NCBI GenBank assembly: GCA_001595945.1
Contig: LSSI01000015.1
Coordinates: forward strand, 1-59,889
Reading direction: 5' to 3'
Source of the DNA: Thermoplasmatales archaeon SM1-50
GTDB taxonomy: Archaea; Thermoplasmatota; E2; DHVEG-1
DNA length: 59,889 bases
Shown: piece after piece, positions 11,323 to 50,096 of the stretch
Position numbering within the stretch: position 1 is the stretch's first letter
Layout: every line of letters begins with the position of its first letter
Translations under genes and position numbers: made by a program
Notes under the pieces: generated by a model
What the model saw: the letters and a program-made list of their open reading frames with translations, nothing else
Databases searched by the model: none
What the model was told of the DNA's origin: nothing

Positions 11323-13266
11323 TTAATAACCCAGTAGTTGTCGTAGGAATGGGAATGCATTGGGAAACCGCTCGAATAACACTTTTAAGAACTGTAGTGT
11401 TGGGCGGTTAAAGGAATATGGCATGGTTACCGTAAGAGTACCCCAATCACTTTCATCACCATTACTGTCTTTTGCTTTTACTCTAATTATGTAATCTCCT
11501 TTTGTAGACCAAGTATGGGATTTGATTATTATACAACCTGAATTATAGGGGCCGATCCAATCACTGTCTGTCCCATCACCCCACTCAATGAAATAGCTTA
11601 CTTCGTCACCATTAGGGTCTATTGCCGTGAAATTATACTGAATGGCAACCTTTATTTTACCCTGCGCTGGACCTGTGATGGTTGGTGTATCAGGTGGCAG
11701 ATTCTCGACACTTATTCCTTTAAGAACAAGGGATGGTTCTCCAAAAAGATTGAATGTATACATGTCTAAATATTCAGCATAGTGATCCCAACCGTAAAAA
11801 AGATTACAGAAATATTTCGCATTATAGAGGGCTTCACCAACTGTCTTTGAATCATTGATCAGAAACCGATTGAATTCAAAAAGAATGGAATCAGAACCAC
11901 CAGGGTTGTTTGGCCAATCAAAGGTTCCATACGGTGAACGAGCTGATGCAATCACACCAATTGAAGCACCCATGGAAGGATCCGTAAGTAAATCTATACC
12001 AAGATTTCCAGTTGGCGATGCCTCTGGACATCCTACATAACAGGATTCTGCAGTGACAATAGACGGATAATCATCATCAAGATTTGAATTAATATTAATG
12101 AAATCAATAAAAGATATCTCTGATGCTTCTGGAACGTTATCACCATCATCCCATTCCCAAACCTTTCGAGCAGCTCTGTTTGTCCACCCATGACCTTGCC
12201 AATTCACCACAGAATATTGACCATTCAGCCAATCGCTAGTTAACGCTGTTTCACTTAAAGGTGGCCAAGGATAGACCGATGTTTCTAATCCTTGTTGTTC
12301 ACTATAATGGCTATTTGACCAGTTCGTCATAGTATCATTTTCAATATAGTAGGAAAGCGTTGCACCATCCATTGCAGGGTTTCCACTGTTGCCTTCGTTA
12401 GTAAAATAAAAAAACGACCCCGCATTCAACGCATTTGTTTTCCATTCAGTGCTATCTTGTTCAAATGAAGTAATTTTATCAAGAGTATATGTTATTCGGG
12501 TGGAGATACTTGTTGGAATTCTTCCTATGTAGACTTCTGGGAAAAAATCTGGTGAATCTTGTCCGTATTCTCCGTAATATCCATCACCATCAAGATCCCA
12601 GGAATCTGCATCACCACTCGATAAATCTGCGTAGTAATAATCGGTTGGCACTTCTCCACTTGTCCAATCGAAAATATCAAATCTATGATTCGTTGGGTCT
12701 GGGTAACAATACCTCATTGGTATAGTTGCATGATCTCCAATGAGTAATACATATTCTATTCCTAACTCTTGGTAAGATACTCTGAGGAAGTTTCTAATTT
12801 TTTCAGGTAAGTCCTGACCGTTTTGAGAGGCAATCTCAGTATCTGTTATATTAAAGATTTTAACAGTATGACCTAGAAGCGTTTTCCATCCAATGAATGC
12901 GGAGGAAGTAATTGCATTATACAAGCTCTCTACAGTAATGATAACGTAATTGTATGTCTCAATATTATTTTGCTTTTGATTTAATGTCCATTGTTTTTCT
13001 ATCTCTCTATTATCCGTAATATTTTTTGAATTTTGTCTGTAAGAGATTAAATGAATTTCTGGTTCTTCGTTCGTGTGTTCTCCATTCTTGTTTATCATTT
13101 GATAATCAGGCGAACATGGTTGAGAAATCGGTGCAATAAATATTTCCGAATCATTTGATAAATCTGGAAATTCAGTATCAAGTTTAAATTTTTTTTCAGT
13201 TGCCATACACTGTAATCCACTAATGAGAAATACGCCGACAATCAGAAATGGAATTATTTTTTTCAT
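11323..13266 (-). CDS. Gingipain-like cysteine peptidase (C25) + PKD + FPNAFP tail
   Basis: YVIIT, YVLLIGD, PTDYYYADL, VYIGRIP, catalytic WQGHG and AESC. PKD signature YFIEWGDG...HTWSTKGDY. C-terminus FERFPNAFPFLRQLLGY. Confidence 0.9.
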   Translation of the reverse strand: MKKIIPFLIVGVFLISGLQCMATEKKFKLDTEFPDLSNDSEIFIAPISQPCSPDYQMINKNGEHTNEEPEIHLISYRQNSKNITDNREIEKQWTLNQKQNNIETYNYVIITVESLYNAITSSAFIGWKTLLGHTVKIFNITDTEIASQNGQDLPEKIRNFLRVSYQELGIEYVLLIGDHATIPMRYCYPDPTNHRFDIFDWTSGEVPTDYYYADLSSGDADSWDLDGDGYYGEYGQDSPDFFPEVYIGRIPTSISTRITYTLDKITSFEQDSTEWKTNALNAGSFFYFTNEGNSGNPAMDGATLSYYIENDTMTNWSNSHYSEQQGLETSVYPWPPLSETALTSDWLNGQYSVVNWQGHGWTNRAARKVWEWDDGDNVPEASEISFIDFININSNLDDDYPSIVTAESCYVGCPEASPTGNLGIDLLTDPSMGASIGVIASARSPYGTFDWPNNPGGSDSILFEFNRFLINDSKTVGEALYNAKYFCNLFYGWDHYAEYLDMYTFNLFGEPSLVLKGISVENLPPDTPTITGPAQGKIKVAIQYNFTAIDPNGDEVSYFIEWGDGTDSDWIGPYNSGCIIIKSHTWSTKGDYIIRVKAKDSNGDESDWGTLTVTMPYSFNRPTLQFLKVLFERFPNAFPFLRQLLGY

Positions 13267-19491: not shown

Positions 19492-19869
19492 TTGCATATG
19501 ACGTATTTGAAAGGATTATTACAACTCTTACTGATATGTCTTACAATTTCTGTTGTGTTTTTTCCCGTTACAGTGTTCATTCACGAAGGAACACATTATA
19601 TTATGTACACTTTGGAGGGCATAGAGGTCACTTCATTTCATGTACTGGATCAAGATTCCTTGGAGCAAGGGCGTGCTGGATTTATAACAACAACGATAGA
19701 ATCTAGATATGGTTCTCTATTTCAAGAGGTAATCGCCAATGTTGCTTCATGTTTCTTTTTAGCATTGATATTGATGTTCTTCCTTGCGAAGCCATTCAAG
19801 AGATTCACGGTTCATCAATTTGAATTAATGGGTGTAAAAAGGAACTTTAATCCTGTCATAAAACAATAA
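19492..19869 (+). CDS. Small membrane protein with HExxH (M50-like) motif
   Basis: VFIHEGTH directly after a TM helix, plus a second TM helix. Confidence 0.6.
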   Translation: MHMTYLKGLLQLLLICLTISVVFFPVTVFIHEGTHYIMYTLEGIEVTSFHVLDQDSLEQGRAGFITTTIESRYGSLFQEVIANVASCFFLALILMFFLAKPFKRFTVHQFELMGVKRNFNPVIKQ

Positions 19870-25161: not shown

Positions 25162-25232
25162 GATGATAAATTATAAATACCATGATTGAATTTTAACTCT
25201 TGAACATGTTTTTTAGAGGGGGAAAGAAAACC
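25162..25232 (+). promoter_or_regulatory. Promoter/leader cassette shared with 13580-13651
   Basis: 35-bp identity to 13580-13614 and a similar downstream leader/RBS. Confidence 0.75.
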
Positions 25233-27044
25233 ATGAAAAAGGAAATATTACAAAGAAGTATAGCTCTTGGAATAATCATCTTACTTATCGGAGGAGGTGT
25301 GATACCATCTCTAGGAGATACCATTACGGAAAAGAACAAAATAAAACCAAGAATTAATGAAAATAACAAGTATGTCAGTTGTACCAGGAATGAACTAGAC
25401 GATGGAAGAAACGGCTGGAATCACACATTTGGAGGTAACTCCTATGATGAGGGCTATTCAGTCCAGCAAACCAATGATAATGGCTACATCATCACAGGTG
25501 CTACTTTGTCATTTGGTGCAGGAAACTGGGATGTTTGGCTGATTAAAATAGATACTACTGGAAGTGAAGAATGGAACCGGACGTTCGGAGGAAGCAATTA
25601 TGATAGAGGATCATCGGTTCAGCAGACCAATGATGGTGGATACGTCATATTAGGAGCCACATATTCCTATGGCCAAGGAGATTTTGATGTTTGGTTAATT
25701 AAAACAGATTCAGTGGGAAACGAGGAATGGAACTTTACATTTGGTGGTAGTAGTAGTGATTGGGGCTGTTCAGTCCAACAGACAAAAGATTACGGCTATA
25801 TACTCACAGGATACACGGACTCATATGGTGCAGGAAATTCAGATGTTTGGTTAATAAAAACAGATTCTGCGGGAAATGAAATCTGGAACTCTACATTTGG
25901 AGGAATCCAGTATGATAGAGGTTTTTCAGTTCAACAAACGACTGACAGCGGCTATATACTCACGGGATACACAGTCTCATATGATGCAGATGGAACCGGT
26001 TGTGATATTTGGTTGATTAAAACAGATGTAAATGGAATTGAAGAATGGCATCAGACATTTGGAGGAACCGGCATTTCTAATAAGTTTGATATGGCTTATT
26101 CAGTCCAGCAGACTAATGACGGTGGTTATATTATCATAGGTGATACAGAGATATATTTTGTAGCTGAATCAGATATTTGGCTAATTAAAACTGATGCCAA
26201 TGGAAATGAGGAATGGAACCGTATTTTCGGAGGTGTTACTGCTGATAGAGGACGTTCAGTTCAGCAAACCAATGACATGGGATACATAATTACAGGATGG
26301 ACAACATACCATAGAGGAGCAGACCCCGATCTTTGGTTAATTAAAACAAACTCCAGTGGAAACGAGGAATGGCAATATACTTATCGATATGGAGAAAACA
26401 GTAGTGATTGGGGGTATTCGGTGCAGCAAACCAATGACGCCGGTTATATAATTGTCGGAGCGACTATGCCTGATGGCTGGAACAACACTGATTCCTCACA
26501 ATCATATCGGCAAGAAGGCACCGATGTTTGGTTAATCAAAACCGCAAGTGAAAATCATCCGCCCATCAAACCAATTATTAACGGTCCTGCTTTCGGACGA
26601 GTGGGGGTACGTTACAACTTCACTATAGTGACAACAGACCCAGATGGAAATGAATGTTATTATCTCCTTGATTGGGGTGATGAAACGCAGAGCAGTTGGC
26701 TTGGTCCCTATCAATCAGGAGTACCCATACAAATCTCACATACATGGAATGAACCAGGAACCTATCTAATAAAAGGAAAAACGAAGGATATAAATGGAGC
26801 AGAAAGTGATTGGTCATCTGAATTTTTAATTACAATCGTCCAACTGAAAACAGCATTCTTCCTTGGAACCTTTACGAACATCAGCCAAACAGATGATCTC
26901 ATGATAATGTATATGCGATTCTTTATTGTGTTTCCATCTGATTCGATTTTTCATCAAGGAGGAATGATAGTTATCTGGAAGGAGTATCTTGGGTATATTG
27001 GACAAGCCTTTTGCCTTGGACGGGGAAATGTTGTAGTTCTCTAA
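25233..27044 (+). CDS. Secreted 7-repeat beta-propeller-like protein + PKD + 'AFxxG' C-terminal module
   Basis: Seven W..TFGG..D.G.SVQQT.DGGYII.G...DVWLIKTD repeats, YLLDWGDE PKD and AFFLGTFTN tail. Confidence 0.88.
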   Translation: MKKEILQRSIALGIIILLIGGGVIPSLGDTITEKNKIKPRINENNKYVSCTRNELDDGRNGWNHTFGGNSYDEGYSVQQTNDNGYIITGATLSFGAGNWDVWLIKIDTTGSEEWNRTFGGSNYDRGSSVQQTNDGGYVILGATYSYGQGDFDVWLIKTDSVGNEEWNFTFGGSSSDWGCSVQQTKDYGYILTGYTDSYGAGNSDVWLIKTDSAGNEIWNSTFGGIQYDRGFSVQQTTDSGYILTGYTVSYDADGTGCDIWLIKTDVNGIEEWHQTFGGTGISNKFDMAYSVQQTNDGGYIIIGDTEIYFVAESDIWLIKTDANGNEEWNRIFGGVTADRGRSVQQTNDMGYIITGWTTYHRGADPDLWLIKTNSSGNEEWQYTYRYGENSSDWGYSVQQTNDAGYIIVGATMPDGWNNTDSSQSYRQEGTDVWLIKTASENHPPIKPIINGPAFGRVGVRYNFTIVTTDPDGNECYYLLDWGDETQSSWLGPYQSGVPIQISHTWNEPGTYLIKGKTKDINGAESDWSSEFLITIVQLKTAFFLGTFTNISQTDDLMIMYMRFFIVFPSDSIFHQGGMIVIWKEYLGYIGQAFCLGRGNVVVL

Positions 27045-29962: not shown

Positions 29963-30440
29963 CCATAAGAATAGAAATTTGATTTAATAGACGTTTCGTA
30001 TATTCTTTCTGTTTCTCCTTTTATTTCAAATTTTTTTGTGTTCAGAGTAATTGGGGACTCTCAAAATGAAAGGGCGGTATGATATGCAAAAGATAAAAGA
30101 AGCAGTGCGAAAAATGTTTTATTTTTACTTTAAATGTTTGGAAACGATAAAAATTCAGAAAGAAAAATGGGGGGAATAAAGGAAATGTTAGGTGAATTAT
30201 ATTTAAGGGAGGAAAGAAATGAAAAATAACTACATTTCCTATTTTTCCCCATATATACATAATAGTTAACAATCGTTAATAAACTTTTCTCCCAATTCAT
30301 TCCCAAATTTACCGAATTTGTTTAAAAAAACACATAACCTCAGTAATTGTAGGGGTGAAAAAACATTGGTAAGGTTTTAAAATTATTGAAATTAGTCTTT
30401 TGTATTCAATTAGATTGATAAAAAAGGAAAATATGAAATT

Positions 30441-32033
30441 TTAGTATTGTAAGAGATGCTGTAGTAGGGGGAATGCATGAGGGAATCTCTCAAGTAATCT
30501 CATCAAAAATTGAATGTATGGAATGTTGTATGAGCATGGCATTGTCACTGAAAATGTTGTCCAGTCACCTTCCGCACCTAGCCCATCTTTCGCTTTCGCT
30601 CTAATTACATAAGTTCCTTTTTCAAACCATGTATGCCCCACTACGACTTCTTCCCCAGAACTATATGAACCGATCCATCCGCTGTTTATGTCGTCTCCCC
30701 AATCTATCCAGTAATAGACATCGTCTCCCTCCAGGTCAATAGTATTAAATGTGAAATGGTATTCTATTCCTGGTTTTCCCTTGGAATCACCATTGATTGT
30801 TGGTTTATTAGGTGGAGTATTTGTTCCTTGTAATTTTATTAATAACACATCAACAGCAGCAAGGTTGTATTTACCAGTTTCACCTGTTATTATATATCCC
30901 CCATCATTTGTTTGGATTCCATACGACCCTGAGTCTGTTTCTCCATTATGATCAATAATGTAGCTCCATTCTTCATTTCCATTTTCATCAGTTTTAATCA
31001 TGTATAACTCAAGATCCTCATGAACCGGATCTGTATAATCACCGGTTATGAAATACCCATCATCTGCAGTTTGTACAATACTTTTTCCTTGATCCCAATT
31101 ACTTCCCCCAAATGTTGAATTCCATAGTTCATTTCCATTAGAATCAGTTTTTATCAACCAGACATCATCATTTCCCATACTAAATGAACTGGTTCCTCCT
31201 GTAATGATGTATCCACCATCCAAGGTTTGTTGAACATATTTACCAGTATCTAAATACATACCACCAAATGATTTATTCCATAATTCGTTTCCATTCGCAT
31301 CTGTTTTAATCAACCAGATATCTCCATTGCCACCAGAATCAAAAGAATGGGTCGATCCAGCAATAATATATCCCCCATCAGAAGTTTGTTGGACACAATC
31401 CCCGCCGTCAAGCCCATTTCCTCCAAAGGTTTGAATCCATTCGTCCACTCCAACTGCATTCAACTTGATAAGCCATACATCACTACTGCCAGCACCATAT
31501 GAACCTGTCCATCCTGTTAGAATATACCCTTCATCAGTTGTTTGTTGAACAGATAAACTATCATCATAATAATTAAAGAGACCAAGTGTGCGTGTCCAGG
31601 TAAAGGCACCACTGGAATCTGTTTTTAAAATATAGGCATCGAAATGATAGTTATAACCTGTAAATCCTGCAATAATATATCCTCCATCAGAAGATGGTTG
31701 TATATATTGACCGACATTTTCATAGGGTATGATTCCATACTGTTGCTGCCATTCTATATTCCCCATAGCATCAATTTTCAATAAATAGATATACCCCTGA
31801 CAAGGCGTGTAAACATACCTATCACAAGCTCCCGATAAGATGTATCCTCCATCAGAAGTTTGCTGCACGCACCGCCCCCAATCAACTAGCTCTCGCCCAT
31901 ATGTTTTTTCCCACTCAATAGGTGGTTGTAACGTGAAATTTCCAGGTTTTTGTGTATCAATACTTGATACAGGAATAACAGTAGCTGCAATTAAAATTGT
32001 ATATATCAATATTCCAAATATTTTCTTTTTCAA
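30441..32033 (-). CDS. Secreted 7-repeat beta-propeller-like protein + PKD + FPNAFP tail
   Basis: Seven QQTxDGGY repeats, YWIDWGDD PKD and LERFPHAFPLLQHLLQY. Probable TTG start at 32033. Confidence 0.88.
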   Translation of the reverse strand: MKKKIFGILIYTILIAATVIPVSSIDTQKPGNFTLQPPIEWEKTYGRELVDWGRCVQQTSDGGYILSGACDRYVYTPCQGYIYLLKIDAMGNIEWQQQYGIIPYENVGQYIQPSSDGGYIIAGFTGYNYHFDAYILKTDSSGAFTWTRTLGLFNYYDDSLSVQQTTDEGYILTGWTGSYGAGSSDVWLIKLNAVGVDEWIQTFGGNGLDGGDCVQQTSDGGYIIAGSTHSFDSGGNGDIWLIKTDANGNELWNKSFGGMYLDTGKYVQQTLDGGYIITGGTSSFSMGNDDVWLIKTDSNGNELWNSTFGGSNWDQGKSIVQTADDGYFITGDYTDPVHEDLELYMIKTDENGNEEWSYIIDHNGETDSGSYGIQTNDGGYIITGETGKYNLAAVDVLLIKLQGTNTPPNKPTINGDSKGKPGIEYHFTFNTIDLEGDDVYYWIDWGDDINSGWIGSYSSGEEVVVGHTWFEKGTYVIRAKAKDGLGAEGDWTTFSVTMPCSYNIPYIQFLMRLLERFPHAFPLLQHLLQY

Positions 32034-32215
32034 AGGATTTCCACCCATACTTGTCTATTTATTGATAACTATATTAGATTTTATCTTACATAATTGTACA
32101 AATTTTTAATTTAACTCTCAATAATTTATAAATGCACAATATTTATTTTTTCCAAACATTTAAATGAAATAAAATCATAATAATTTCTAATCTGATTTTC
32201 AGGAGGAGGAAGAAA

Positions 32216-33935: not shown

Positions 33936-35018
33936 ATGAAAAAATTAAAATACGCTAGAGTAGGAATCATTGTAATGACGCTTATATTGTCAATTGCAAG
34001 TTCCTTCGGTAGTTTGGTTGGAGATAGTAACAATGCTGAAATGTTTTGGGAACATCCTGTTTCACAAGGACCTATACTAGAGGTTACGACAGACAAAACT
34101 GTGTATAATGTAAGTGAGCCAGTAATTATATTTTTAACAAATATCGGGGACGAGACATTAAGTGCCGGTGGCCCAACCATTACTATATATAACGAGGACG
34201 AGGAAATTGTTTACCAAGAAGCTACATATTGTTGGTATGAACTTGATCCTGGGGAATATATAGAGTGGCCGCCTTGGACTCAAACAAATCAACAGGGACA
34301 GCAGGTTCCTGTTGGTAAGTATGTGGTTGAAGGGTTTCTCTCTGGTGGTGATGAAAACTATGTTGACACTGCGACATTCTATATCATAAATTATGAGCCA
34401 CCAGGTCCACCCTATGGTCCTAATGAAGGTACTGTAGGAGAAGAATATACCTTCTGCTTTGATCTACCGATGAATCCAGAATGTGAGCCCTATTATATCA
34501 TATGGGACTGGGGAGACGGTTCGTTAAGTGAGTGGAGTGGACCGTATACCGCAGGACTGACAGTCTGTGAAACTCATTCATGGGACGAACCAGGAAATTA
34601 TGAAATAAAGATTGGTTTAAAAGATGGTGTTGATAACGAGTACTGGTCAGACCCGTTGATAATAACAATCCATCCTGCTCCTGGTCCTAAATTAGAAATT
34701 GTGAAAATACGCGGTGGATTAGGCATCAGAACGTATATTAAAAATATTGGAAACGAAACCCCTAATAAGGTGTATTTTTGGCTTGAGCACGGTGGAGGTA
34801 TTTTTGTACGACTCCATAGACATGGCACCTCGCTTGATCCGATACGACCTGGAGAAACAGTAGTCTATTGGACTAAACTAGGAAGATTTGGTATATCATT
34901 TGGTTTTTTAACAGAACCATCTTGGTTTACAATAACTATTGAGGTAGAACAAGATCAAGTTTCCGATGTTGAATCATTCAATGCTTTGGTGTTTGGTCCG
35001 TTTGTATCCATCCAATAA
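33936..35018 (+). CDS. Secreted multi-Ig protein (BsuPI-like + PKD + C-terminal Ig-like module)
   Basis: LEVTTDKTVYNVSEPVIIFLTN, YIIWDWGDG, GGLGIRTYIKNIG...LVFGPFVSIQ. Confidence 0.82.
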   Translation: MKKLKYARVGIIVMTLILSIASSFGSLVGDSNNAEMFWEHPVSQGPILEVTTDKTVYNVSEPVIIFLTNIGDETLSAGGPTITIYNEDEEIVYQEATYCWYELDPGEYIEWPPWTQTNQQGQQVPVGKYVVEGFLSGGDENYVDTATFYIINYEPPGPPYGPNEGTVGEEYTFCFDLPMNPECEPYYIIWDWGDGSLSEWSGPYTAGLTVCETHSWDEPGNYEIKIGLKDGVDNEYWSDPLIITIHPAPGPKLEIVKIRGGLGIRTYIKNIGNETPNKVYFWLEHGGGIFVRLHRHGTSLDPIRPGETVVYWTKLGRFGISFGFLTEPSWFTITIEVEQDQVSDVESFNALVFGPFVSIQ

Positions 35019-40417: not shown

Positions 40418-41686
40418 TTATTTACATTTCATATCTAGAATTATATCAACTACAAATCCAATGACAATAACAAGCGAACCAAACAAAAGTACATCAACGG
40501 GGAGGCTTACAATCATCCATAACGATGTCACAATTCCAAGTAACGGAATAACCGGGAACCATCCGATATGAAACGGAACCATAAACCCAATGACAATAGG
40601 CTTTTTGTAACGGAAATAAATAACAGAGGCATTTATCATTATAAAAACCGAAAATATCGTAAAATTCGTCAAATTCGCAATCGTCTTCAGATCGCCAATG
40701 AACAAAAACAGCATTGCTACAACCACAATAGTAACGATAGCGACCCAGGGCGTACGGAACCGTCTACCTACCGCCATAAACATCTTGGGAATCGCCTCCT
40801 GCTGGGCAATACCATAGATTAACCGCGAGCCGGTTAGCAGCATCATAAGAGCAGTGTTAAAGGTCGAAAACAAGGCAATCAACGTAAGAATCAAAAAACT
40901 CTGTGCACCAAACACCCGCTCAGCTATCAACGCCAAAGGCGCCTTTGCAACTGACAGCTGCTGCCAGGGAATCACACTGACCGCAGAGATCCCAACAAAG
41001 ATGTAAATCAGTGTAGTAATGATCATGGAAAACAGAATCGCTTTTGGGATGTTTTTCTCCGGGTTTTTCGTTTCCTCTGCTAAACGAGTGATACCCTCAA
41101 AACCAAGGTACCCAAAGAAAATCAGTACTCCGGCCTCAACAATGCCTTGTACTCCTGCTGCCGCCTCAAGATAGTCCACCGAACCAAGAGTGGGTAGACC
41201 AACGAAGATAATAATCAGCAACCCAAGAATCTCAATAACGGTAAACACGATCGTGACTTTCGCGGTCTGCTGCACCCCAATAATTAAAATGACTTCAATG
41301 ACGACCAGCAGAATGACGGCGACCCAAAGAACAGGTGTATGAAACATCGCTGAAAAATACCGTGCAAATCCCAACGCAACCGTCGCACCCCCAATCACGC
41401 TTCCAGCAAGAAGTAACCAGGCAACAAGCCAGGCAGCTCTGCTGCCAAATGAGTTCTCAATATAGACATACTCAGCCCCTGCCTTAGGAAACCGAGAGGA
41501 AAGCTCAGCATAGCTAAACGCAGTAAGAGTCGCAACACCCGCAGCGATTAGAAATGACATCCAGATGCAATTGCCACTTAACCCCACCGCCTCACCGATA
41601 ATAACGTAAATACCAGCGCCAAGAATGATGCCAACGCTCATAAACGTCAATTGCCACAGAGATAACGAACGTTTCAACTCAATCAT
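40418..41686 (-). CDS. APC-superfamily amino acid permease
   Basis: LKRSLSLWQL, IILGAGIY, SYAELSSRFPKAGAEYVY, FEGITRLAEETKNPEKNIPKAI. Confidence 0.95.
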   Translation of the reverse strand: MIELKRSLSLWQLTFMSVGIILGAGIYVIIGEAVGLSGNCIWMSFLIAAGVATLTAFSYAELSSRFPKAGAEYVYIENSFGSRAAWLVAWLLLAGSVIGGATVALGFARYFSAMFHTPVLWVAVILLVVIEVILIIGVQQTAKVTIVFTVIEILGLLIIIFVGLPTLGSVDYLEAAAGVQGIVEAGVLIFFGYLGFEGITRLAEETKNPEKNIPKAILFSMIITTLIYIFVGISAVSVIPWQQLSVAKAPLALIAERVFGAQSFLILTLIALFSTFNTALMMLLTGSRLIYGIAQQEAIPKMFMAVGRRFRTPWVAIVTIVVVAMLFLFIGDLKTIANLTNFTIFSVFIMINASVIYFRYKKPIVIGFMVPFHIGWFPVIPLLGIVTSLWMIVSLPVDVLLFGSLVIVIGFVVDIILDMKCK

Positions 41687-41811
41687 ACGCTCAATCGAAG
41701 ATTAAAATTCTATTTAACTTTTTTTTCACCTGGTTAATCGTAATATTTGTATCTACCTGTATAAAAAAATAATGGAATCCTACACTATAAAAAAGTGATT
41801 GAAGAGATGGA

Positions 41812-41870
41812 TGAGCTGGGTAAAAAAAGCTTTCTATAAAGGGGTGGAAAGCAAATGGTACCCCAGCTCA
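41812..41870. ncRNA. Candidate structured RNA / attenuator (hairpin 1)
   Basis: Outer stem TGAGCTGGG/CCCAGCTCA (9 bp), inner stem GCTTTCTA/TGGAAAGC, TATAAAAA at 41786-41793. Confidence 0.4.
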
Positions 41871-42019
41871 GCATATACTGGATATACCATCGGATTTAAA
41901 AGACTTTTTATAAATATAACCCCAAAAATCAAGCAGACACATCACCACAATTTTATATTACGTCTAATGATACCGATTTATCTCTATACGTAAATAATCA
42001 AAATAAAAAAAAGAATTTA

Positions 42020-42452
42020 CTATCTTTTATTTTGTTTTTCACCAGGATTTGTTTGCTTCTGATCCCTTAGGATTTTACACATAATTTGATAGATTTCATC
42101 TCTATTCGGGGAATATTCAGGGTGACGATCGATGAACTGACTGACCAGGATTTTGACGTTTCTTCCTTTTTTATTTTCAGTAAACTTTGAAATCTTTCCT
42201 GAGAGCGACTTCAAAATATTGTTTTTTTGATAATTCATATGGATTTCACTAAGAACAATCAGTATCTCACTAACCGACAAGGAAAAAAGAATCGTTGTGA
42301 AAAAGATGATGTAATGTTCGTTTATCCGGACTGCATGTTCGATAAGGATGATATCAATAACGAGCACTAACACTGGCAGGAGCAGCGAGAGTTTTTCTAG
42401 AATGGGGAATGTTGTGATTTCACAGAGAAGCGACCTACATCGACTAAATCAT
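42020..42452 (-). CDS. Two-TM membrane hypothetical protein (5' end probably frameshifted)
   Basis: The frame is open upstream of 42373 (SRCRSLLCEITTFPILEKLSLLLP). Removing one T of the TTT at 42446-42448 joins it to ATG 42452. Confidence 0.65.
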
Positions 42453-42676
42453 GGTATATTCAGATATAGGACAAACAAACTTATGATTTAATAATTACGA
42501 TAAATAATGGTGACAAACAAAGGTATTATGCAAAAAAATCATACAAATGAAGCAAACTATCTCATGTTTTTTCTTTTTTTAAAAACAAACCTTCACAAAA
42601 CAAGTTAATAAAGCGATGAAATATCTTTTTTCTTTTACTACAAAAGTTTATTTATGAAGTAGTAATTCGTAAGAAT

Positions 42677-42744
42677 GGCTCCGGGGAGGTACAACTAGTT
42701 AAATAACACTAACCTGTTCGTTATTTCTTCCACTTCTCGGAGCC
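42677..42744 (+). ncRNA. Candidate small RNA (hairpin 2)
   Basis: 12-bp stem GGCTCCGGGGAG/CTTCTCGGAGCC with two G-U pairs on +. Inner stem AAATAAC/GTTATTT. BRE-TATA at 42641-42654 (-30..-23). Confidence 0.5.
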
Positions 42745-42811
42745 TACTATAAAAACAGAGACAAAACACTAGGCAAATCTATATAAACATGTTTTTTATT
42801 CAGGAAAATCA

Positions 42812-42866
42812 GCTCCGGAGATCAATGTTTTTTTATTTAATTTTCTTTCCTCCCTTGCTTCGGAGC
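42812..42866 (+). ncRNA. Candidate small RNA (hairpin 3)
   Basis: 9-bp stem GCTCCGGAG/CTTCGGAGC with one G-U pair on +. Pyrimidine-rich loop. TATATAAA at 42780-42787. Confidence 0.45.
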
Positions 42867-43237
42867 CTCACATTTCCTTCAGACACGCTGCTCGTCCTTA
42901 AACACACTCCTTATCCACAATAAAAAAGACAGGAATCTATTGATACGATTGGAAAATCATGTGATAATGATTTTATATTACAGAGATACCTATATTTTCA
43001 TTTGATTTCACATAAAAAAAATATTAAGTCATCGTGGCTTTGTAAACCATGTATACTATCCCTTGATTTTCAAGAGAATGTGTTTAGCAAACGGAAATCA
43101 ATGATTACCCCAAGGAAAATTCGGCCATCGTAATTTTTATAACCTTTGTTACAATCGTATATTAAGCATAAATTATAAATACCGGTAGGGTATTTTATAT
43201 TTTATAGGACCCTGTTTTCAGGGGAGGAAGATAGAAA

Positions 43238-44326
43238 ATGAAGAAGAAAATAATTAGTATAGTAGTTTGTACGCTAATGATAGGAACAACAAGCCTCGTC
43301 GTCGCTGACTGGGCGCCAGGTGATGGACATAAAATGCATTTCCCGCAACTTCCAGATCCAACCGGCTGGGATGTAAACTTCCACGATTATTTTCTTGGAG
43401 ATGATTGGCAATGTACCCAAACAGGACCAGTCACCGATATTCACTTCTGGATATCCTGGCGCCAAGATGTAATGGAAGACCTTCCATTTGTTCATGTCTT
43501 CATATATTCAAATAACCCGCAAGGACCTGGGTATTCACAACCAGACGTTCTATTATGGGAACAAATGTTTACCTTTGATCAATTCATCATTGCAGGTCCA
43601 TGGACAGGTGATCAAGGCTGGCTTGAACCATATGGTGAATACTTTTTACATGATCACATACACTATTATCAAATTAATATAAAAAACATTTCTAATCCAT
43701 TTATACAACAAAATGGAACTATCTACTGGTTGGTTATTCAGATGCCATTCCTCTACCCAATTGAAATGGGTTGGAAAACAACATTGGATCATTTCATGGA
43801 TGCAGCAGTATGGGGTGCCCCGGGGTCATGGTATCCCATCGAGGATCCATTATTAGGAACACAAATCGACTTTGCTTTTGTAATAACTAATTTTATACCA
43901 CCACCACCAGAACCTGATCTCAGTTGCAGGGGATCACTAACTTGGGATGAAGTACAACCTAGTTCTACTGTTACCGGGACATTCGAAGTTGGGAATGTAG
44001 GAGAAATCGGTTCACTACTTAATTGGACGGTGGACAGCTGGCCGCCTTGGGGGACCTGGTCGTTTACGCCAAAAAATGGTACGGCTCTTCCCAAAGGAAG
44101 CTGGGTGAACATAACAGCCACAGTGGTTGCACCTTCCGAGAAACCAAAAGAATTCAACGGGAAAATAAAAGTAATTAATACAGATGACACAACTGACTTC
44201 TGCGAAATAGATGTTACTCTTAAGACTCCAAAGTCCTTTGATATCCAGTTCCTACTTTTCTTCGGGAGACTCTTCAACCGATTTCCCAATGCGTTTCCGA
44301 TACTCCGATATCTAATGGGATACTAA
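43238..44326 (+). CDS. Secreted protein (DDWxC...DIHFW domain) + Ig-like domain + FPNAFP tail
   Basis: Signal peptide, GDDWQCTQTGPVTDIHFWISW, PPPPEPDLSC linker, LFNRFPNAFPILRYLMGY. Confidence 0.85.
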   Translation: MKKKIISIVVCTLMIGTTSLVVADWAPGDGHKMHFPQLPDPTGWDVNFHDYFLGDDWQCTQTGPVTDIHFWISWRQDVMEDLPFVHVFIYSNNPQGPGYSQPDVLLWEQMFTFDQFIIAGPWTGDQGWLEPYGEYFLHDHIHYYQINIKNISNPFIQQNGTIYWLVIQMPFLYPIEMGWKTTLDHFMDAAVWGAPGSWYPIEDPLLGTQIDFAFVITNFIPPPPEPDLSCRGSLTWDEVQPSSTVTGTFEVGNVGEIGSLLNWTVDSWPPWGTWSFTPKNGTALPKGSWVNITATVVAPSEKPKEFNGKIKVINTDDTTDFCEIDVTLKTPKSFDIQFLLFFGRLFNRFPNAFPILRYLMGY

Positions 44327-48419: not shown

Positions 48420-50096
48420 TTAGATTATTACATCCGCAAATCCTACAATGAACCAAGATAAAAAAATCATTTTGACAGTCTCTTTTACGACGGTTACATA
48501 CTCCCCTATGAAATAATGACCCCATTGAAATGGACTGATAACTAAAAAACGAAGGTTGACTGCCTCAATGCTGATATACTCACCTACGGTTGTCTTATTT
48601 GAATATCTACCAAAAATAAATGCATTCTTAACTGTATGCACGTTGAAGAGAAAAGGGTCAGACCAATTACTCTCTTGACCAAGTTCATCTTTAAGTTTTC
48701 CTTGTATCTCATAGATGCCTTTCTCAGACCAAGCATGGGATGCACAGATCATACTTTCAGAGGAATAGGGACCAAGCCACCCGCTATTTGTACCATCCCC
48801 CCAATCCCATTTGCAATAGAGGCAGTCTCCGTTAAGGTTTGTTGAATTGATACAGAACGTATAGTGAACATCGATAATCCCCCAAGCGGGACCGTTGAGT
48901 ACTGGTTGCTTTGGGGGCAGTAGCCAACCATTAGGTTCCATGAACGGATATGTATCCTGATTACTGCCCCCAGGGATAGGATATGGTATGTCTCCAATCC
49001 CATCACCATCAGAATCTTCTCCTGTGTAATCAGACCAATAATTCCCTTCGTGAAGTAATGTGTTATACCAAGTGTTCGACAAGGTGTCAAATGAATTAAG
49101 AGTATTGTGCAGAAGATTGTTATGATAGATATTATTGTTAGTCGAATCCTTGAGTCGTACGCCGTACAGGTTGTCTGCAATGGTGTTCTCATAGATGGTG
49201 TTGTTCCACCCGTTCAGCCAGATACCACACTGGTTTTCTATCATGGTGTTAGTAGAGATAATACAAGAATGAGACCTGATGATTTGGATACCGACAGTCG
49301 TATTGAAGAGAGCTTGGTTTTGTACTGTGATATTCGTGCAATCTACAAGAAGTATCTGCCCTGCATTACCAGAAAGGATAATATCAGATTGGTTATAGAC
49401 ATAGATAAGTGGTTTGCCATTGACCGTATTATTCGTTACAATATTATAAGTAAGTGAATCATCGGTAATAAATAAACCACAGTAAAGAAAGTTATTATTC
49501 GAAATAATGTTATCCCATGCATCCGTTATGAATATCCCATAGACGTTGTTGGTAACGTAGTTATCCGAGATGATATTGTTATTTCCAAGCAGATAGATTG
49601 TGTCGCAATAAATACTGTTGCACGAGATGTTATTGTGATCACCAGAAATCCGTATATTATCATTGGGAAACTCAATAATGGTGTCAAAAAAGGTGTTATA
49701 GGATGAATCTATTCTAATCCCCTCACCTATACGCCCGGTGTTTTGAATAGTAAACTTACTCATATTCACCCAATCAGAAATAATAGAAATCGTAAACGCA
49801 ACATACCCGACGATATATGTTGTATATTTATCCTCACCAATTAGGGTGAGTGATTTATTGATGTTGAGATGCCCAACATACGTCCCATTGAACACAAACA
49901 CGGTATCCCCAGCACTTGCGTTGTCAATCGCTTGCTGAATCCCCGTGTAATTCCCTGGTCCAGAACCACCAACATACAACCAATTCCCTCGTGATACCAC
50001 CTGAGATGTTGTTTCTCCCATGTGTCCAGAAATGGGAACGCTACTCGCTCCAAGCATTAAAAGAATTAATCCGATAGTAACTACTTTTGGATTCAG
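48420..50096 (-). CDS. Secreted right-handed beta-helix (NosD-like) + PKD + 'AFIFGRY' C-terminal module
   Basis: LYVGGSGPGNYTGIQQAI, GNYWSDY.G.D..GDGIGD.PY, CKWDWGDG, AFIFGRY. The signal peptide extends to a CTG at 50096 behind a GGGGG RBS. Confidence 0.88.
   Translation of the reverse strand: MNPKVVTIGLILLMLGASSVPISGHMGETTSQVVSRGNWLYVGGSGPGNYTGIQQAIDNASAGDTVFVFNGTYVGHLNINKSLTLIGEDKYTTYIVGYVAFTISIISDWVNMSKFTIQNTGRIGEGIRIDSSYNTFFDTIIEFPNDNIRISGDHNNISCNSIYCDTIYLLGNNNIISDNYVTNNVYGIFITDAWDNIISNNNFLYCGLFITDDSLTYNIVTNNTVNGKPLIYVYNQSDIILSGNAGQILLVDCTNITVQNQALFNTTVGIQIIRSHSCIISTNTMIENQCGIWLNGWNNTIYENTIADNLYGVRLKDSTNNNIYHNNLLHNTLNSFDTLSNTWYNTLLHEGNYWSDYTGEDSDGDGIGDIPYPIPGGSNQDTYPFMEPNGWLLPPKQPVLNGPAWGIIDVHYTFCINSTNLNGDCLYCKWDWGDGTNSGWLGPYSSESMICASHAWSEKGIYEIQGKLKDELGQESNWSDPFLFNVHTVKNAFIFGRYSNKTTVGEYISIEAVNLRFLVISPFQWGHYFIGEYVTVVKETVKMIFLSWFIVGFADVII

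What the first reader, a model, noticed from the sequence alone, without database searches (positions are those of the whole stretch)
42641..42872. Tandem pair of promoter-preceded hairpin sRNA candidates sharing a GCTCCGG...CGGAGC closing stem
Seen: in an otherwise very AT-rich gap, two 55-68-nt elements have the same GC-rich terminal stem but different interiors. Each begins about 23-25 nt after its own BRE/TATA. All three non-Watson-Crick stem pairs are G-U on + but would be A-C on -. They lack tRNA arms, C/D boxes and a K-turn, although ACA follows the second at 42870-42872. With 41812-41870, this makes three rod-like RNAs within 1.1 kb. Inference: an undescribed small-RNA family, with a conserved stem as protein-binding handle and a variable loop as targeting region.
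Basis: partly seen in the sequence, partly recalled or inferred. Interest (0 to 1): 0.7.

Follow-up and report, generated by a model that had tools for sequence, protein, structure and literature searches.

The report
Archaeal small RNA with CCUCCC loop
One of the two hairpins is a conserved, promoter-driven small-RNA gene of sediment Thermoplasmatota archaea whose open loop carries an invariant CCUCCC motif complementary to ribosome-binding sites, so it probably represses translation; the other hairpin is found only in this species and its kinship is unproven.

Summary
The sequence features are real. There are two hairpins, E1 (42677-42744) and E2 (42812-42866). Both close with GGCTCCG/CGGAGCC-type stems, each lies about 21-24 nt after a TATA-like box, and all wobble pairs are G-U on the + strand.

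Only E2 has relatives. Seven distinct versions occur in Thermoplasmata and Thermoplasmatota MAGs and in sediment or freshwater metagenomes. They share a BRE/TATA at a fixed distance, the 9-bp stem, a variable U-rich 5' loop half and an invariant, unpaired UUUCCUCCCUUG.

A second window copy, E4 (30250-30170, minus strand), has the same loop motif inside a completely different 19-bp stem.

The motif is the antisense of a consensus translation start region: Shine-Dalgarno, A-rich spacer and often AUG. My best reading is a multicopy trans-acting anti-ribosome-binding-site sRNA, like M. mazei sRNA41, Listeria LhrC or S. aureus RsaE.

E1 does not score as a family member (12 bits, E 0.75) and has no homologues outside near-identical strains. 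E3 (41812-41870) is an unrelated stable hairpin.

There is no compensatory covariation, no Rfam match and no usable RNA-seq evidence. This is a plausible new sRNA family of a known kind, of moderate interest.

The parts
42774..42787 (+). BRE/TATA-like promoter of E2 (GCAAATCTATATAAA)
   Evidence: It is conserved as CAAATCTWTATRAA at a fixed 59-60 nt from the loop motif in all homologues. That includes L006 and L007, which were found with a pattern that did not contain the promoter. With the TATA box at -31 to -24, the start falls at about 42811. That rule is general knowledge of archaeal promoters, and the start site itself is inferred.
42811..42868 (+). E2 small-RNA gene: 5' arm 42812-42820, open loop 42821-42857, 3' arm 42858-42866
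   Evidence: The fold is. Seven distinct homologues are listed. The stem is 96.8% paired across them, with GC/GU exchanges at two pairs and no double-sided changes. The covariance model scores it 84.6 bits.
42842..42857 (+). Invariant CU-rich loop motif TTTCTTTCCTCCCTTG, the anti-Shine-Dalgarno seed candidate
   Evidence: The core TTCCTCCCTTG was part of both search patterns, so its invariance is partly ascertained. It is also kept in variants found by similarity only. The mean probability of being unpaired is 0.91-0.98 in six of seven variants. The exact 15-mer occurs only twice in the window.
42641..42656 (+). BRE/TATA-like sequence before E1 (CAAAAGTTTATTTATG)
   Evidence: Read from the sequence. 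It shares the 11-mer AAAAGTTTATT with the sequence before E4, but that is not significant in this AT-rich DNA. A strain variant at 42645 changes it.
42677..42744 (+). E1 hairpin with a 12-bp stem, found only in this species so far; possible diverged paralogue of E2
   Evidence: Fold z is -3.9. Local alignment to E2 scores 33 against 20.4 +/- 3.8 for shuffles, and 2 of 500 shuffles reach it. The covariance model gives only 12.1 bits, E 0.75. It is unchanged in strains about 2-3% divergent. No other homologues were found.
30170..30250 (-). E4, a second hairpin with the same loop motif (30205-30219) but a different 19-bp stem, followed by T5 runs
   Evidence: The covariance model hits it at 18.6 bits, E 0.018, and 16.2 bits, E 0.075. 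The sequence is and the fold. Alignment to E2 scores 55 against 28 +/- 4.9, and 0 of 500 shuffles reach it. Diverged copies in other metagenome contigs keep CCUCC.
30274..30288 (-). BRE/TATA-like sequence before E4 (AAAAGTTTATTAACG)
   Evidence: Read. It lies about 24 nt upstream of the first stem base.
41812..41870 (.). E3, a stable hairpin that is unrelated in sequence; strand and function unresolved
   Evidence: Fold z is -5.7 on the plus strand and -5.2 on the minus strand. There is no Rfam hit, no other copies at 85% or more in four metagenomes, and no strain variants inside it.
43213..43252 (+). Translation start region of the DUF7901 gene (CAGGGGAGGAAGATAGAAAATG...), the best predicted pairing partner in the window
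   Evidence: The predicted duplex is -27.8 kcal/mol with the E2 loop and -26.9 with the E4 loop. Each is the best of 44 start regions. Only 0.3% of random 50-mers reach -22. This is a prediction only.

Best explanation
E2 is a stand-alone small-RNA gene. An archaeal BRE/TATA promoter starts transcription at about 42811, at the first base of a 9-bp GC-rich stem. That stem holds open a loop of about 37 nt.

The 5' half of the loop is U-rich and variable. It may be a binding site for Sm-like proteins. The 3' half is the invariant UUUCCUCCCUUG.

This motif is the antisense of a Shine-Dalgarno sequence plus its A-rich spacer. In most family members a CAU sits 6-8 nt upstream of it, which extends the antisense to the AUG.

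The RNA would pair in trans with the translation start regions of Shine-Dalgarno-led mRNAs and block 30S binding. The window holds at least two such genes, E2 and E4, which have different stems but the same seed, so this is a multicopy 'sibling' family.

E1 has the same closing stem and a degenerate CU-rich 3' loop segment. It is most simply a diverged local duplicate of E2 whose function is unproven. E3 is not part of the system.

**Shown:** the anatomy, the conservation, the unpaired state of the motif in silico, and the complementarity. **Inferred:** transcription, the RNA ends, pairing in vivo, the regulatory outcome and the status of E1.
For: - **Independent conservation of parts.** A scan for motif plus 3' arm found L006 and L007, and both have the same promoter and 5' arm. 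A scan for promoter plus motif found 9 true loci, and all have both stem arms.
- **Fixed geometry.** The spacing from promoter to motif is 59-60 nt in every homologue.
- **Own transcription unit.** The unit lies between divergent or convergent genes and has different neighbours in different lineages.
- **Strand.** The stem is 96.8% paired on the plus strand, and the L011 and L012 changes swap G-C and G-U. On the minus strand every sequence would carry an A-C mismatch.
- **Motif accessibility.** The motif is unpaired with P 0.91-0.98 in six of seven variants.
- **Same motif, different stem.** E4 carries it in a different helix. Other metagenome variants keep CCUCC with other flanks.
- **Shine-Dalgarno use.** About half of the window's genes have GGAGG-type sites. 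The E2 loop pairs better with start regions (mean -12.3 kcal/mol) than with random 50-mers (-7.3), with a best hit of -27.8.
- **Antisense of a consensus start region.** A genome-wide scan for the motif was swamped by bacterial RBS+ATG sites read on the opposite strand.
- **Polymorphism.** None of 42 polymorphic sites in the 1.5-kb gap fall in E1, E2 or E3, against 5.1 expected (P about 0.004).
- **Precedents.** Anti-RBS loops occur in M. mazei sRNA41 and sRNA154 (PMC5867862). UCCC or CU-rich motifs occur in LhrC, which has five copies (PMC4132741), in RsaE (PMC2790875) and in 6C (PMC6486639).
Against: - **No transcript evidence.** No RNA run holds the window's locus. The one metatranscriptome contig on the L006 homologue spans the promoter as well, so it may be DNA or read-through. 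Three sediment metatranscriptomes gave nothing.
- **No covariation.** There is no double-sided compensatory change in the stem, and L014 breaks two pairs and does not fold into the hairpin.
- **Ascertainment.** The invariance of the promoter core and of the motif is partly forced by my search patterns.
- **Internal T runs.** The loops contain T5-T8 runs, which can terminate archaeal RNA polymerase. The downstream T run is short: T3 in the window and T4-T5 elsewhere.
- **Non-specific pairing.** Any CCUCC pairs with any Shine-Dalgarno sequence. The top predicted target is the same for E2 and E4, and it is simply the most purine-rich start region.
- **Limited spread.** E1 and E4 have no orthologues in more distant relatives.
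Confidence: 0.5

Rival explanations
1. E2 and E4 are transcribed hairpin RNAs that work by binding a protein rather than by pairing with mRNAs. The partner could be an Sm-like protein or a pyrimidine-tract binder, recognising the U-rich and CU-rich loop. The RNA would then act as a decoy, a scaffold or a housekeeping RNP component.
For: The loop is long, unstructured and U/C-rich in every member. The conserved block is 12 nt or more, which is longer than an anti-SD seed needs, and it includes UUG next to the stem. The stem sequence itself is conserved without covariation, as expected for a protein contact.
Against: E4 keeps the motif but not the stem. The motif is an exact antisense of a consensus start region, including CAU in most copies. 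No candidate partner protein gene is linked to the element.
Confidence: 0.15
2. The functional strand is the minus strand. There the motif reads AAGGGAGGAAAGAAA(ATG), a ribosome-binding site with a start codon for a tiny peptide, or a Shine-Dalgarno-mimic RNA.
For: Five of seven E2 variants, and E4, have ATG 5-8 nt after GGAGG on the opposite strand. The same string marks real bacterial gene starts.
Against: The open frames are 3, 3, 3, 6, 9 and 16 codons with no conserved sequence. ATG is absent in the window's E2 (ATT) and in L014 (ACT). On the minus strand the stem has an A-C mismatch in every sequence. The conserved TATA/BRE sits at the correct distance only for the plus strand.
Confidence: 0.1
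3. The hairpins are not functional RNAs. They are remnants of a short mobile or duplicated palindromic DNA element (MITE-like), or protein-binding inverted repeats in a fast-evolving AT-rich gap.
For: The same inverted-repeat ends occur twice within 190 nt. E2-like sequences lie in different gene neighbourhoods. These genomes do carry a high-copy intergenic repeat nearby. The gap itself is not syntenic in relatives.
Against: There are no target-site duplications around E1, E2 or any homologue. The conserved unit includes about 45 nt of promoter upstream of the 'terminal repeat' at fixed spacing. Only one copy occurs per 7-15 kb locus. There was no match in viral contigs. The interior is more conserved than the ends across paralogues.
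Confidence: 0.05
4. E2 is an archaeal H/ACA-type pseudouridylation guide. This is the ACA clue that the first reader noted.
For: It is a single hairpin followed by CUCACA in the window and CCUACA in L006.
Against: ACA is present in only four of seven variants: L007 has CUCUCA, L012 has UUAUAU and L014 has UUUCAC. There is no upper stem, no K-turn or K-loop and no two-sided pocket, because the interior is an open loop. No H/ACA family in Rfam scores.
Confidence: 0.02

Closest known systems
Methanosarcina mazei sRNA41, and loop 2 of sRNA154 (archaeal trans-acting sRNAs that mask ribosome-binding sites; reviewed in PMC5867862)
   Same: Both are archaeal, intergenic and driven by their own promoter. 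Each carries an anti-RBS sequence in an unpaired loop, and the proposed action is translational repression by covering the Shine-Dalgarno region.
   Different: There is no sequence or structural similarity and the phylum is different. E2 is much shorter (about 58 nt, one hairpin). It has no expression or target data. It occurs as several copies with different stems.
Listeria LhrC1-5 and the UCCC-motif sRNAs of low-GC bacteria (RsaE/RoxS, RNAIII hairpins, SprD, FsrA; PMC4132741, PMC2790875), and the 6C sRNA of Actinobacteria (PMC6486639)
   Same: All have an unpaired C-rich or CU-rich motif in a hairpin loop that pairs with Shine-Dalgarno sequences, in an AT-rich genome. LhrC is also multicopy, with a separate promoter for each copy, which resembles the several copies in this window.
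   Different: Those sRNAs are bacterial, end in Rho-independent terminators and usually carry two or three motif copies per RNA. Here there is one longer motif (UUUCCUCCCUUG) per hairpin, an archaeal promoter and no terminator hairpin. This is functional analogy only, not homology.
Archaeal H/ACA and C/D box guide sRNAs
   Same: They are small archaeal RNAs with terminal stems, and ACA follows E2 in the window.
   Different: There are no C/D boxes, K-turn, pseudouridylation pocket or conserved ACA.
MITEs and other short palindromic repeat elements
   Same: They have short inverted-repeat ends, occur more than once, and sit in a variable intergenic gap.
   Different: There are no target-site duplications. 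The upstream promoter is co-conserved at fixed spacing. Copy number is low, and the interior is conserved rather than the ends.

Membership tests
Any Rfam 15 family | Covariance-model score at or above the family's gathering threshold | tested here: not met
   There were 0 hits at gathering score in the whole window. At E<=10 on 41600-43300 the best overlapping hit was uup RNA at 19.4 bits against a threshold of 36.8, E 0.96.
tRNA / tmRNA | Cloverleaf detectable by ARAGORN | tested here: not met
   No gene was found in the window.
Archaeal H/ACA guide sRNA | ACA box conserved directly 3' of the lower stem | tested here: not met
   ACA is present in four of seven variants only.
Archaeal H/ACA guide sRNA | Upper stem with K-turn or K-loop, and a two-sided pseudouridylation pocket | tested here: not met
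   The interior is a 37-40 nt open loop in the MFE and ensemble structures of the variants.
C/D box sRNA | Box C (RUGAUGA) and box D (CUGA) near the termini | tested here: not met
   Neither box is present in E1 or E2. The weak snoRNA hits lie elsewhere or on the other strand, at E 3-7.5.
MITE | Terminal inverted repeats flanked by target-site duplications, with many copies in unrelated sites | tested here: not met
   No direct duplications flank E1, E2 or the homologues. The conserved block extends about 45 nt upstream of the repeat. There is one copy per locus.
Anti-Shine-Dalgarno (C-rich loop) trans-acting sRNAs, as a functional class | Unpaired C-rich motif complementary to the organism's Shine-Dalgarno sequence | tested here: met
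   CCUCCC is unpaired with P 0.91-0.98 in six of seven variants and 1.0 in E4. GGAGG-type sites precede about half of the window's genes, and the loop pairs preferentially with start regions.
Anti-Shine-Dalgarno (C-rich loop) trans-acting sRNAs, as a functional class | Expressed as a discrete small transcript | tested here: inconclusive
   No RNA run holds the window's locus. One low-depth metatranscriptome contig on the L006 homologue includes the promoter. Nothing was found in three sediment metatranscriptomes.
Anti-Shine-Dalgarno (C-rich loop) trans-acting sRNAs, as a functional class | Binds target start regions and blocks initiation | not testable with these tools
   Only duplex predictions are available.
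E2 family as defined here (model R2) | E1 scores significantly against the covariance model | tested here: not met
   E1 scores 12.1 bits, E 0.75. Pairwise similarity to E2 is modest, with 2 of 500 shuffles reaching it.
E2 family as defined here (model R2) | E4 scores significantly or shares the loop motif | tested here: inconclusive
   The model gives 18.6 bits, E 0.018 (R1), and 16.2 bits, E 0.075 (R2), because the stems differ. The exact 15-mer is shared, and alignment gives 0 of 500 shuffles.
Structured RNA in general | Compensatory (double-sided) base-pair changes in the helix | tested here: not met
   There are 0 pairs with changes on both sides, two pairs with GC/GU exchange and two broken cells in L014. 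Only seven distinct sequences were available.

The most novel reading that the evidence does not exclude
Thermoplasmatota of the sediment clades may carry a multicopy family of 'anti-start-region' sRNAs. These would be antisense to Shine-Dalgarno, spacer and AUG, and would act as a global brake on Shine-Dalgarno-led mRNAs as opposed to leaderless ones, perhaps those of secreted proteins. E1 holds a GGGGAGG Shine-Dalgarno mimic inside a hairpin with the same arms as E2. It could be a built-in decoy or sponge, or a strand-swap partner, that titrates E2.
Probability: 0.1. Interest if true: 0.65.

Novelty: new member of a known kind. Interest (0 to 1): 0.4.

Why it matters
Very few archaeal regulatory RNAs have a known mechanism, and as far as my Rfam and paper searches went, none is described for the uncultured sediment Thermoplasmatota that are abundant in marine and freshwater sediments.

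This is a short gene with a conserved promoter and an invariant, exposed anti-Shine-Dalgarno seed. That gives a concrete hypothesis to test: an RNA of about 58 nt, with a defined seed and a defined first candidate target. It also gives a covariance model that can be used to annotate these MAGs.

It also shows that low-GC archaea may have arrived at the same 'C-rich loop' solution as low-GC bacteria. All of this remains a prediction from sequence alone.

Tried and rejected
- **Rfam and ARAGORN.** Neither found anything.
- **Synteny through the DUF7901 gene and the permease.** Relatives at 50-81% amino-acid identity have other neighbours, and an AsnC regulator sits upstream of the permease. No orthologous gap was available to test E1 or E3.
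- **Genome scan for E1's stem arms.** All 46 hits were chance matches in high-GC bacteria.
- **Genome scan for the loop motif alone.** That was informative about what the motif is, but it yielded no new members.
- **Viral contigs.** No match.
- **Synteny for E4.** It is not conserved next to the orthologues of the 217-aa gene at 55-65% identity.
- **RNA runs.** No usable transcript evidence.
- **First covariance model (R1).** I built it with the helix one column out of register. The sliding control showed this, and I corrected it as R2.
- **Apparent absence of E1 in one strain.** A read-laying run suggested this, but a longer stretch on the same run contradicted it, so I discarded it.
- **Coding readings.** The 44-codon plus-strand frame over E2 starts upstream of the predicted transcript start, and a diverged copy carries non-triplet indels. 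The minus-strand mini-ORFs are not conserved.
- **Outer helix AGGAAA/UUUCCU around E2.** It lies upstream of the predicted start, so I rejected it.
- **CM hit at 19743-19797 (E 0.017).** It lies inside a hydrophobic ORF with no promoter, so I treat it as chance.

Full report
**Setting.** The window is AT-rich (about 35% GC). Its proteins are closest to MAGs labelled Thermoplasmata or Thermoplasmatota, among them the isolates named M9B2D and M8B2D. The same DNA is held by marine-sediment metagenomes.

The finding lies in a 1.55-kb gap between two genes. One is an amino-acid permease (40418-41686, minus strand). The other is a secreted DUF7901 protein (43238-44326, plus strand). The only other ORF in the gap is a small one without family matches (42020-42373, minus).

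**The observation.**
- E1 is GGCUCCGGGGAG...CUUCUCGGAGCC (42677-42744), a 12-bp stem with two G-U pairs.
- E2 is GCUCCGGAG...CUUCGGAGC (42812-42866), a 9-bp stem with one G-U pair.
- TATA-like boxes end 21 and 24 nt upstream of the stems, and ACA is at 42870-42872.
- E1 folds clearly better than shuffles (z -3.9). E2 does so modestly (z -2.4). E3 at 41812-41870 does so strongly (z -5.7).
- Three of the four exact GGCTCCGR sites in the 60-kb window lie in this 190-nt stretch.
- There is no tRNA and no Rfam family.

E2 is not a rod. It is a short stem closing a 37-nt open loop.

**E2 has relatives; E1 and E3 do not.** Contigs from other metagenome runs showed two things. Strains 2-3% divergent carry all three elements unchanged. 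In addition, several unrelated contigs match only the 3' half of E2.

An exact scan of species-representative genomes for the 3' loop plus 3' arm found two MAGs, L006 (Thermoplasmata) and L007 (Thermoplasmatota). Both also have the 5' arm and the promoter (CAAATCTWTATRAA) at the same distance, although neither was in the pattern.

A metagenome scan with a stem-free pattern (promoter, gap, loop motif) returned 11 loci. Nine of them carry both stem arms, and two are chance matches. Together these give seven distinct sequences.

Across these sequences:
- the 5' half of the loop is U-rich and variable, with indels;
- the 3' half, UUUCCUCCCUUG, is invariant;
- the trailer is pyrimidine-rich;
- the spacing from promoter to motif is 59-60 nt.

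Part of this invariance is imposed by my patterns. The independently ascertained parts are the stems in one scan, and the promoter plus 5' arm in the other, and these are conserved too.

The unit sits between divergent or convergent genes, and its neighbours differ between lineages. It is therefore its own transcription unit and not a leader of a particular gene.

For E1, a scan for its arms gave only chance hits in high-GC bacteria, and no diverged copies appear in the metagenomes examined. E3 likewise has no other copies.

**Structure and strand.** With the correct register the 9-bp helix is 96.8% paired. Two adjacent pairs exchange G-C and G-U in L011 and L012. L014 breaks two pairs and does not fold. 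There is no double-sided compensatory change, so covariation does not prove the helix.

The plus strand is favoured for two reasons:
- On the minus strand every sequence would have an A-C mismatch.
- The conserved TATA box places the start at the first stem base only for the plus strand. This rests on general knowledge of archaeal promoters, with the TATA box centred near -26/-27.

**The loop motif defines the family.** The covariance model built from the E2 set found a second site in the window, at 30205-30237 on the minus strand. It lies in the loop of another hairpin that also follows a promoter-like sequence. This is E4 (30250-30170), with a 19-bp stem GGGGAAAAAUAGGAAAUGU/ACAUUUCCUUUAUUCCCC and T5 runs after it.

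E4 shares with E2 the exact 15-mer UUUCUUUCCUCCCUU, and these are the only two exact copies in the window. It also shares the U-rich stretch before the motif and the ACAUUUCC tail. Alignment scores 55 against 28 +/- 4.9 for shuffles, and none of 500 shuffles reach it. The stem, however, is entirely different.

Diverged copies of both E2 and E4 in other contigs again keep a CU-rich CCUCC core with other flanks.

E1 scores only 12.1 bits (E 0.75) with the corrected model. Beyond the arms it resembles E2 only modestly, with 2 of 500 shuffles reaching the alignment score. Its CU-rich 3' segment (UUUCUUCCACUUCUC) lacks CCUCCC and is partly paired with a GGGGAGG in its own 5' arm. I regard it as a possible diverged duplicate, not a demonstrated member.

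**What the motif is.** Its reverse complement, AAGGGAGGAAAGAAA(AUGA), is a textbook ribosome-binding site with a start codon.

In the family itself the opposite-strand frames are 3-16 codons, unconserved, and lack ATG in two members. It is therefore not a gene start.

About half of the window's genes have GGAGG-type sites. The motif is predicted to be unpaired, with P 0.91-0.98 in six of seven variants. The E2 loop pairs better with the 44 start regions (mean -12.3 kcal/mol) than with random 50-mers (-7.3). The best partner for both E2 and E4 is the adjacent DUF7901 gene (-27.8 and -26.9 kcal/mol), and only 0.3% of random sequences reach -22. That start region is simply the most purine-rich one in the window, so I do not claim specificity.

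**Mechanism proposed.** These are short trans-acting sRNAs, present in several copies. A GC clamp presents an anti-Shine-Dalgarno, anti-start-region seed, and the seed blocks initiation on Shine-Dalgarno-led mRNAs. The U-rich half of the loop is a plausible Sm-like protein site, which is inference only.

Close functional precedents are:
- M. mazei sRNA41 and sRNA154 loop 2 (PMC5867862);
- the CU-rich or UCCC-motif sRNAs LhrC1-5, RsaE and others (PMC4132741, PMC2790875);
- the 6C sRNA (PMC6486639).

**Weak points.**
- There is no expression evidence. No RNA run holds the window's locus. One low-depth metatranscriptome contig over the L006 copy includes the promoter, so it may be DNA. Three sediment metatranscriptomes gave nothing.
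- The loops contain T5-T8 runs that could terminate archaeal transcription early.
- There is no covariation.
- The sampling is narrow and pattern-biased.
- E1, E3 and E4 could not be traced in more distant relatives.

A mild population signal exists. None of the 42 variable sites in the gap fall within the 186 nt of E1, E2 and E3, against 5.1 expected (P about 0.004).

**Verdict.** It is wrong about which part is conserved, and it is unproven for E1 and E3. This is a new member of a known kind (C-rich-loop anti-RBS sRNAs) in an unstudied archaeal lineage, of moderate interest.

Noticed in passing
window 7907, 9038, 9561, 9964, 11245 (+); 19348, 23025, 24234 (-); L006 4265, 4443, 4614: There is a dispersed intergenic motif GCATTGACAYGG followed by TTT(T)AC and often ACACAAT. 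It gives 14 hits at up to 2 mismatches against 4.3 expected, and 0 of 100 shuffles reach that number. Most clear copies lie between genes. It also flanks the E2 homologue in L006. In one run, 17 contigs with different flanks pile onto it, so it is a high-copy repeat or regulatory site in these archaea.
   Followed up: partly
window 30441-32048 (-), 11323-13266, 25200-27044, 33936-35018, 48420-50057; L006, L007, L013, L017: A large paralogous family of secreted PKD-domain proteins sharing a C-terminal region lies next to E4 in the window, and next to E2 homologues in four other loci. This could be a functional link, or it could simply reflect how numerous these genes are.
   Followed up: partly
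window 41687-43237 versus L065-L071: In relatives at 75-81% permease identity, an AsnC-family regulator sits directly upstream of the permease. In the window that position is taken by the 1.5-kb AT-rich gap holding E3, a 72/117-codon orphan ORF, E1 and E2. The gap is therefore a lineage-specific, rearranged region.
   Followed up: partly
window 41687-41730 (minus-strand gene start at 41686): The permease has no Shine-Dalgarno sequence and has a TTAAATAG box ending 23 nt before its ATG, so it is probably leaderless. About half of the window's genes lack GGAGG. This organism appears to mix leaderless and Shine-Dalgarno-led initiation.
   Followed up: no
L014 347-407: One family member (GCTCCGGAA...CTTCGGAAC) carries two changes that break the stem on the plus strand but would be G-U on the minus strand, and it does not fold into the hairpin. 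It may be a decaying copy, an assembly error, or a hint that the helix is dispensable.
   Followed up: no
window 19743-19797 (+): The corrected covariance model gives 18.7 bits (E 0.017) here, for a GCUUC/GAAGC hairpin with UUCUUCCUUG in the loop. It lies inside a hydrophobic 125-codon ORF and has no promoter, so I treat it as chance.
   Followed up: partly
window 42630-42790, runs X6-X9: One read-laying run returned no coverage for run X8 over E1. A longer stretch on the same run showed a 909-nt contig covering it. A negative result from short stretches with this tool should not be read as absence.
   Followed up: yes
window 42677-42689 versus 42846-42857 and 43215-43226: E1's 5' arm contains CCGGGGAGG, nearly the same string as the DUF7901 ribosome-binding site (CAGGGGAGG), and it is complementary to the E2 and E4 seed. 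E1's arms could also swap partners with E2's arms.
   Followed up: no
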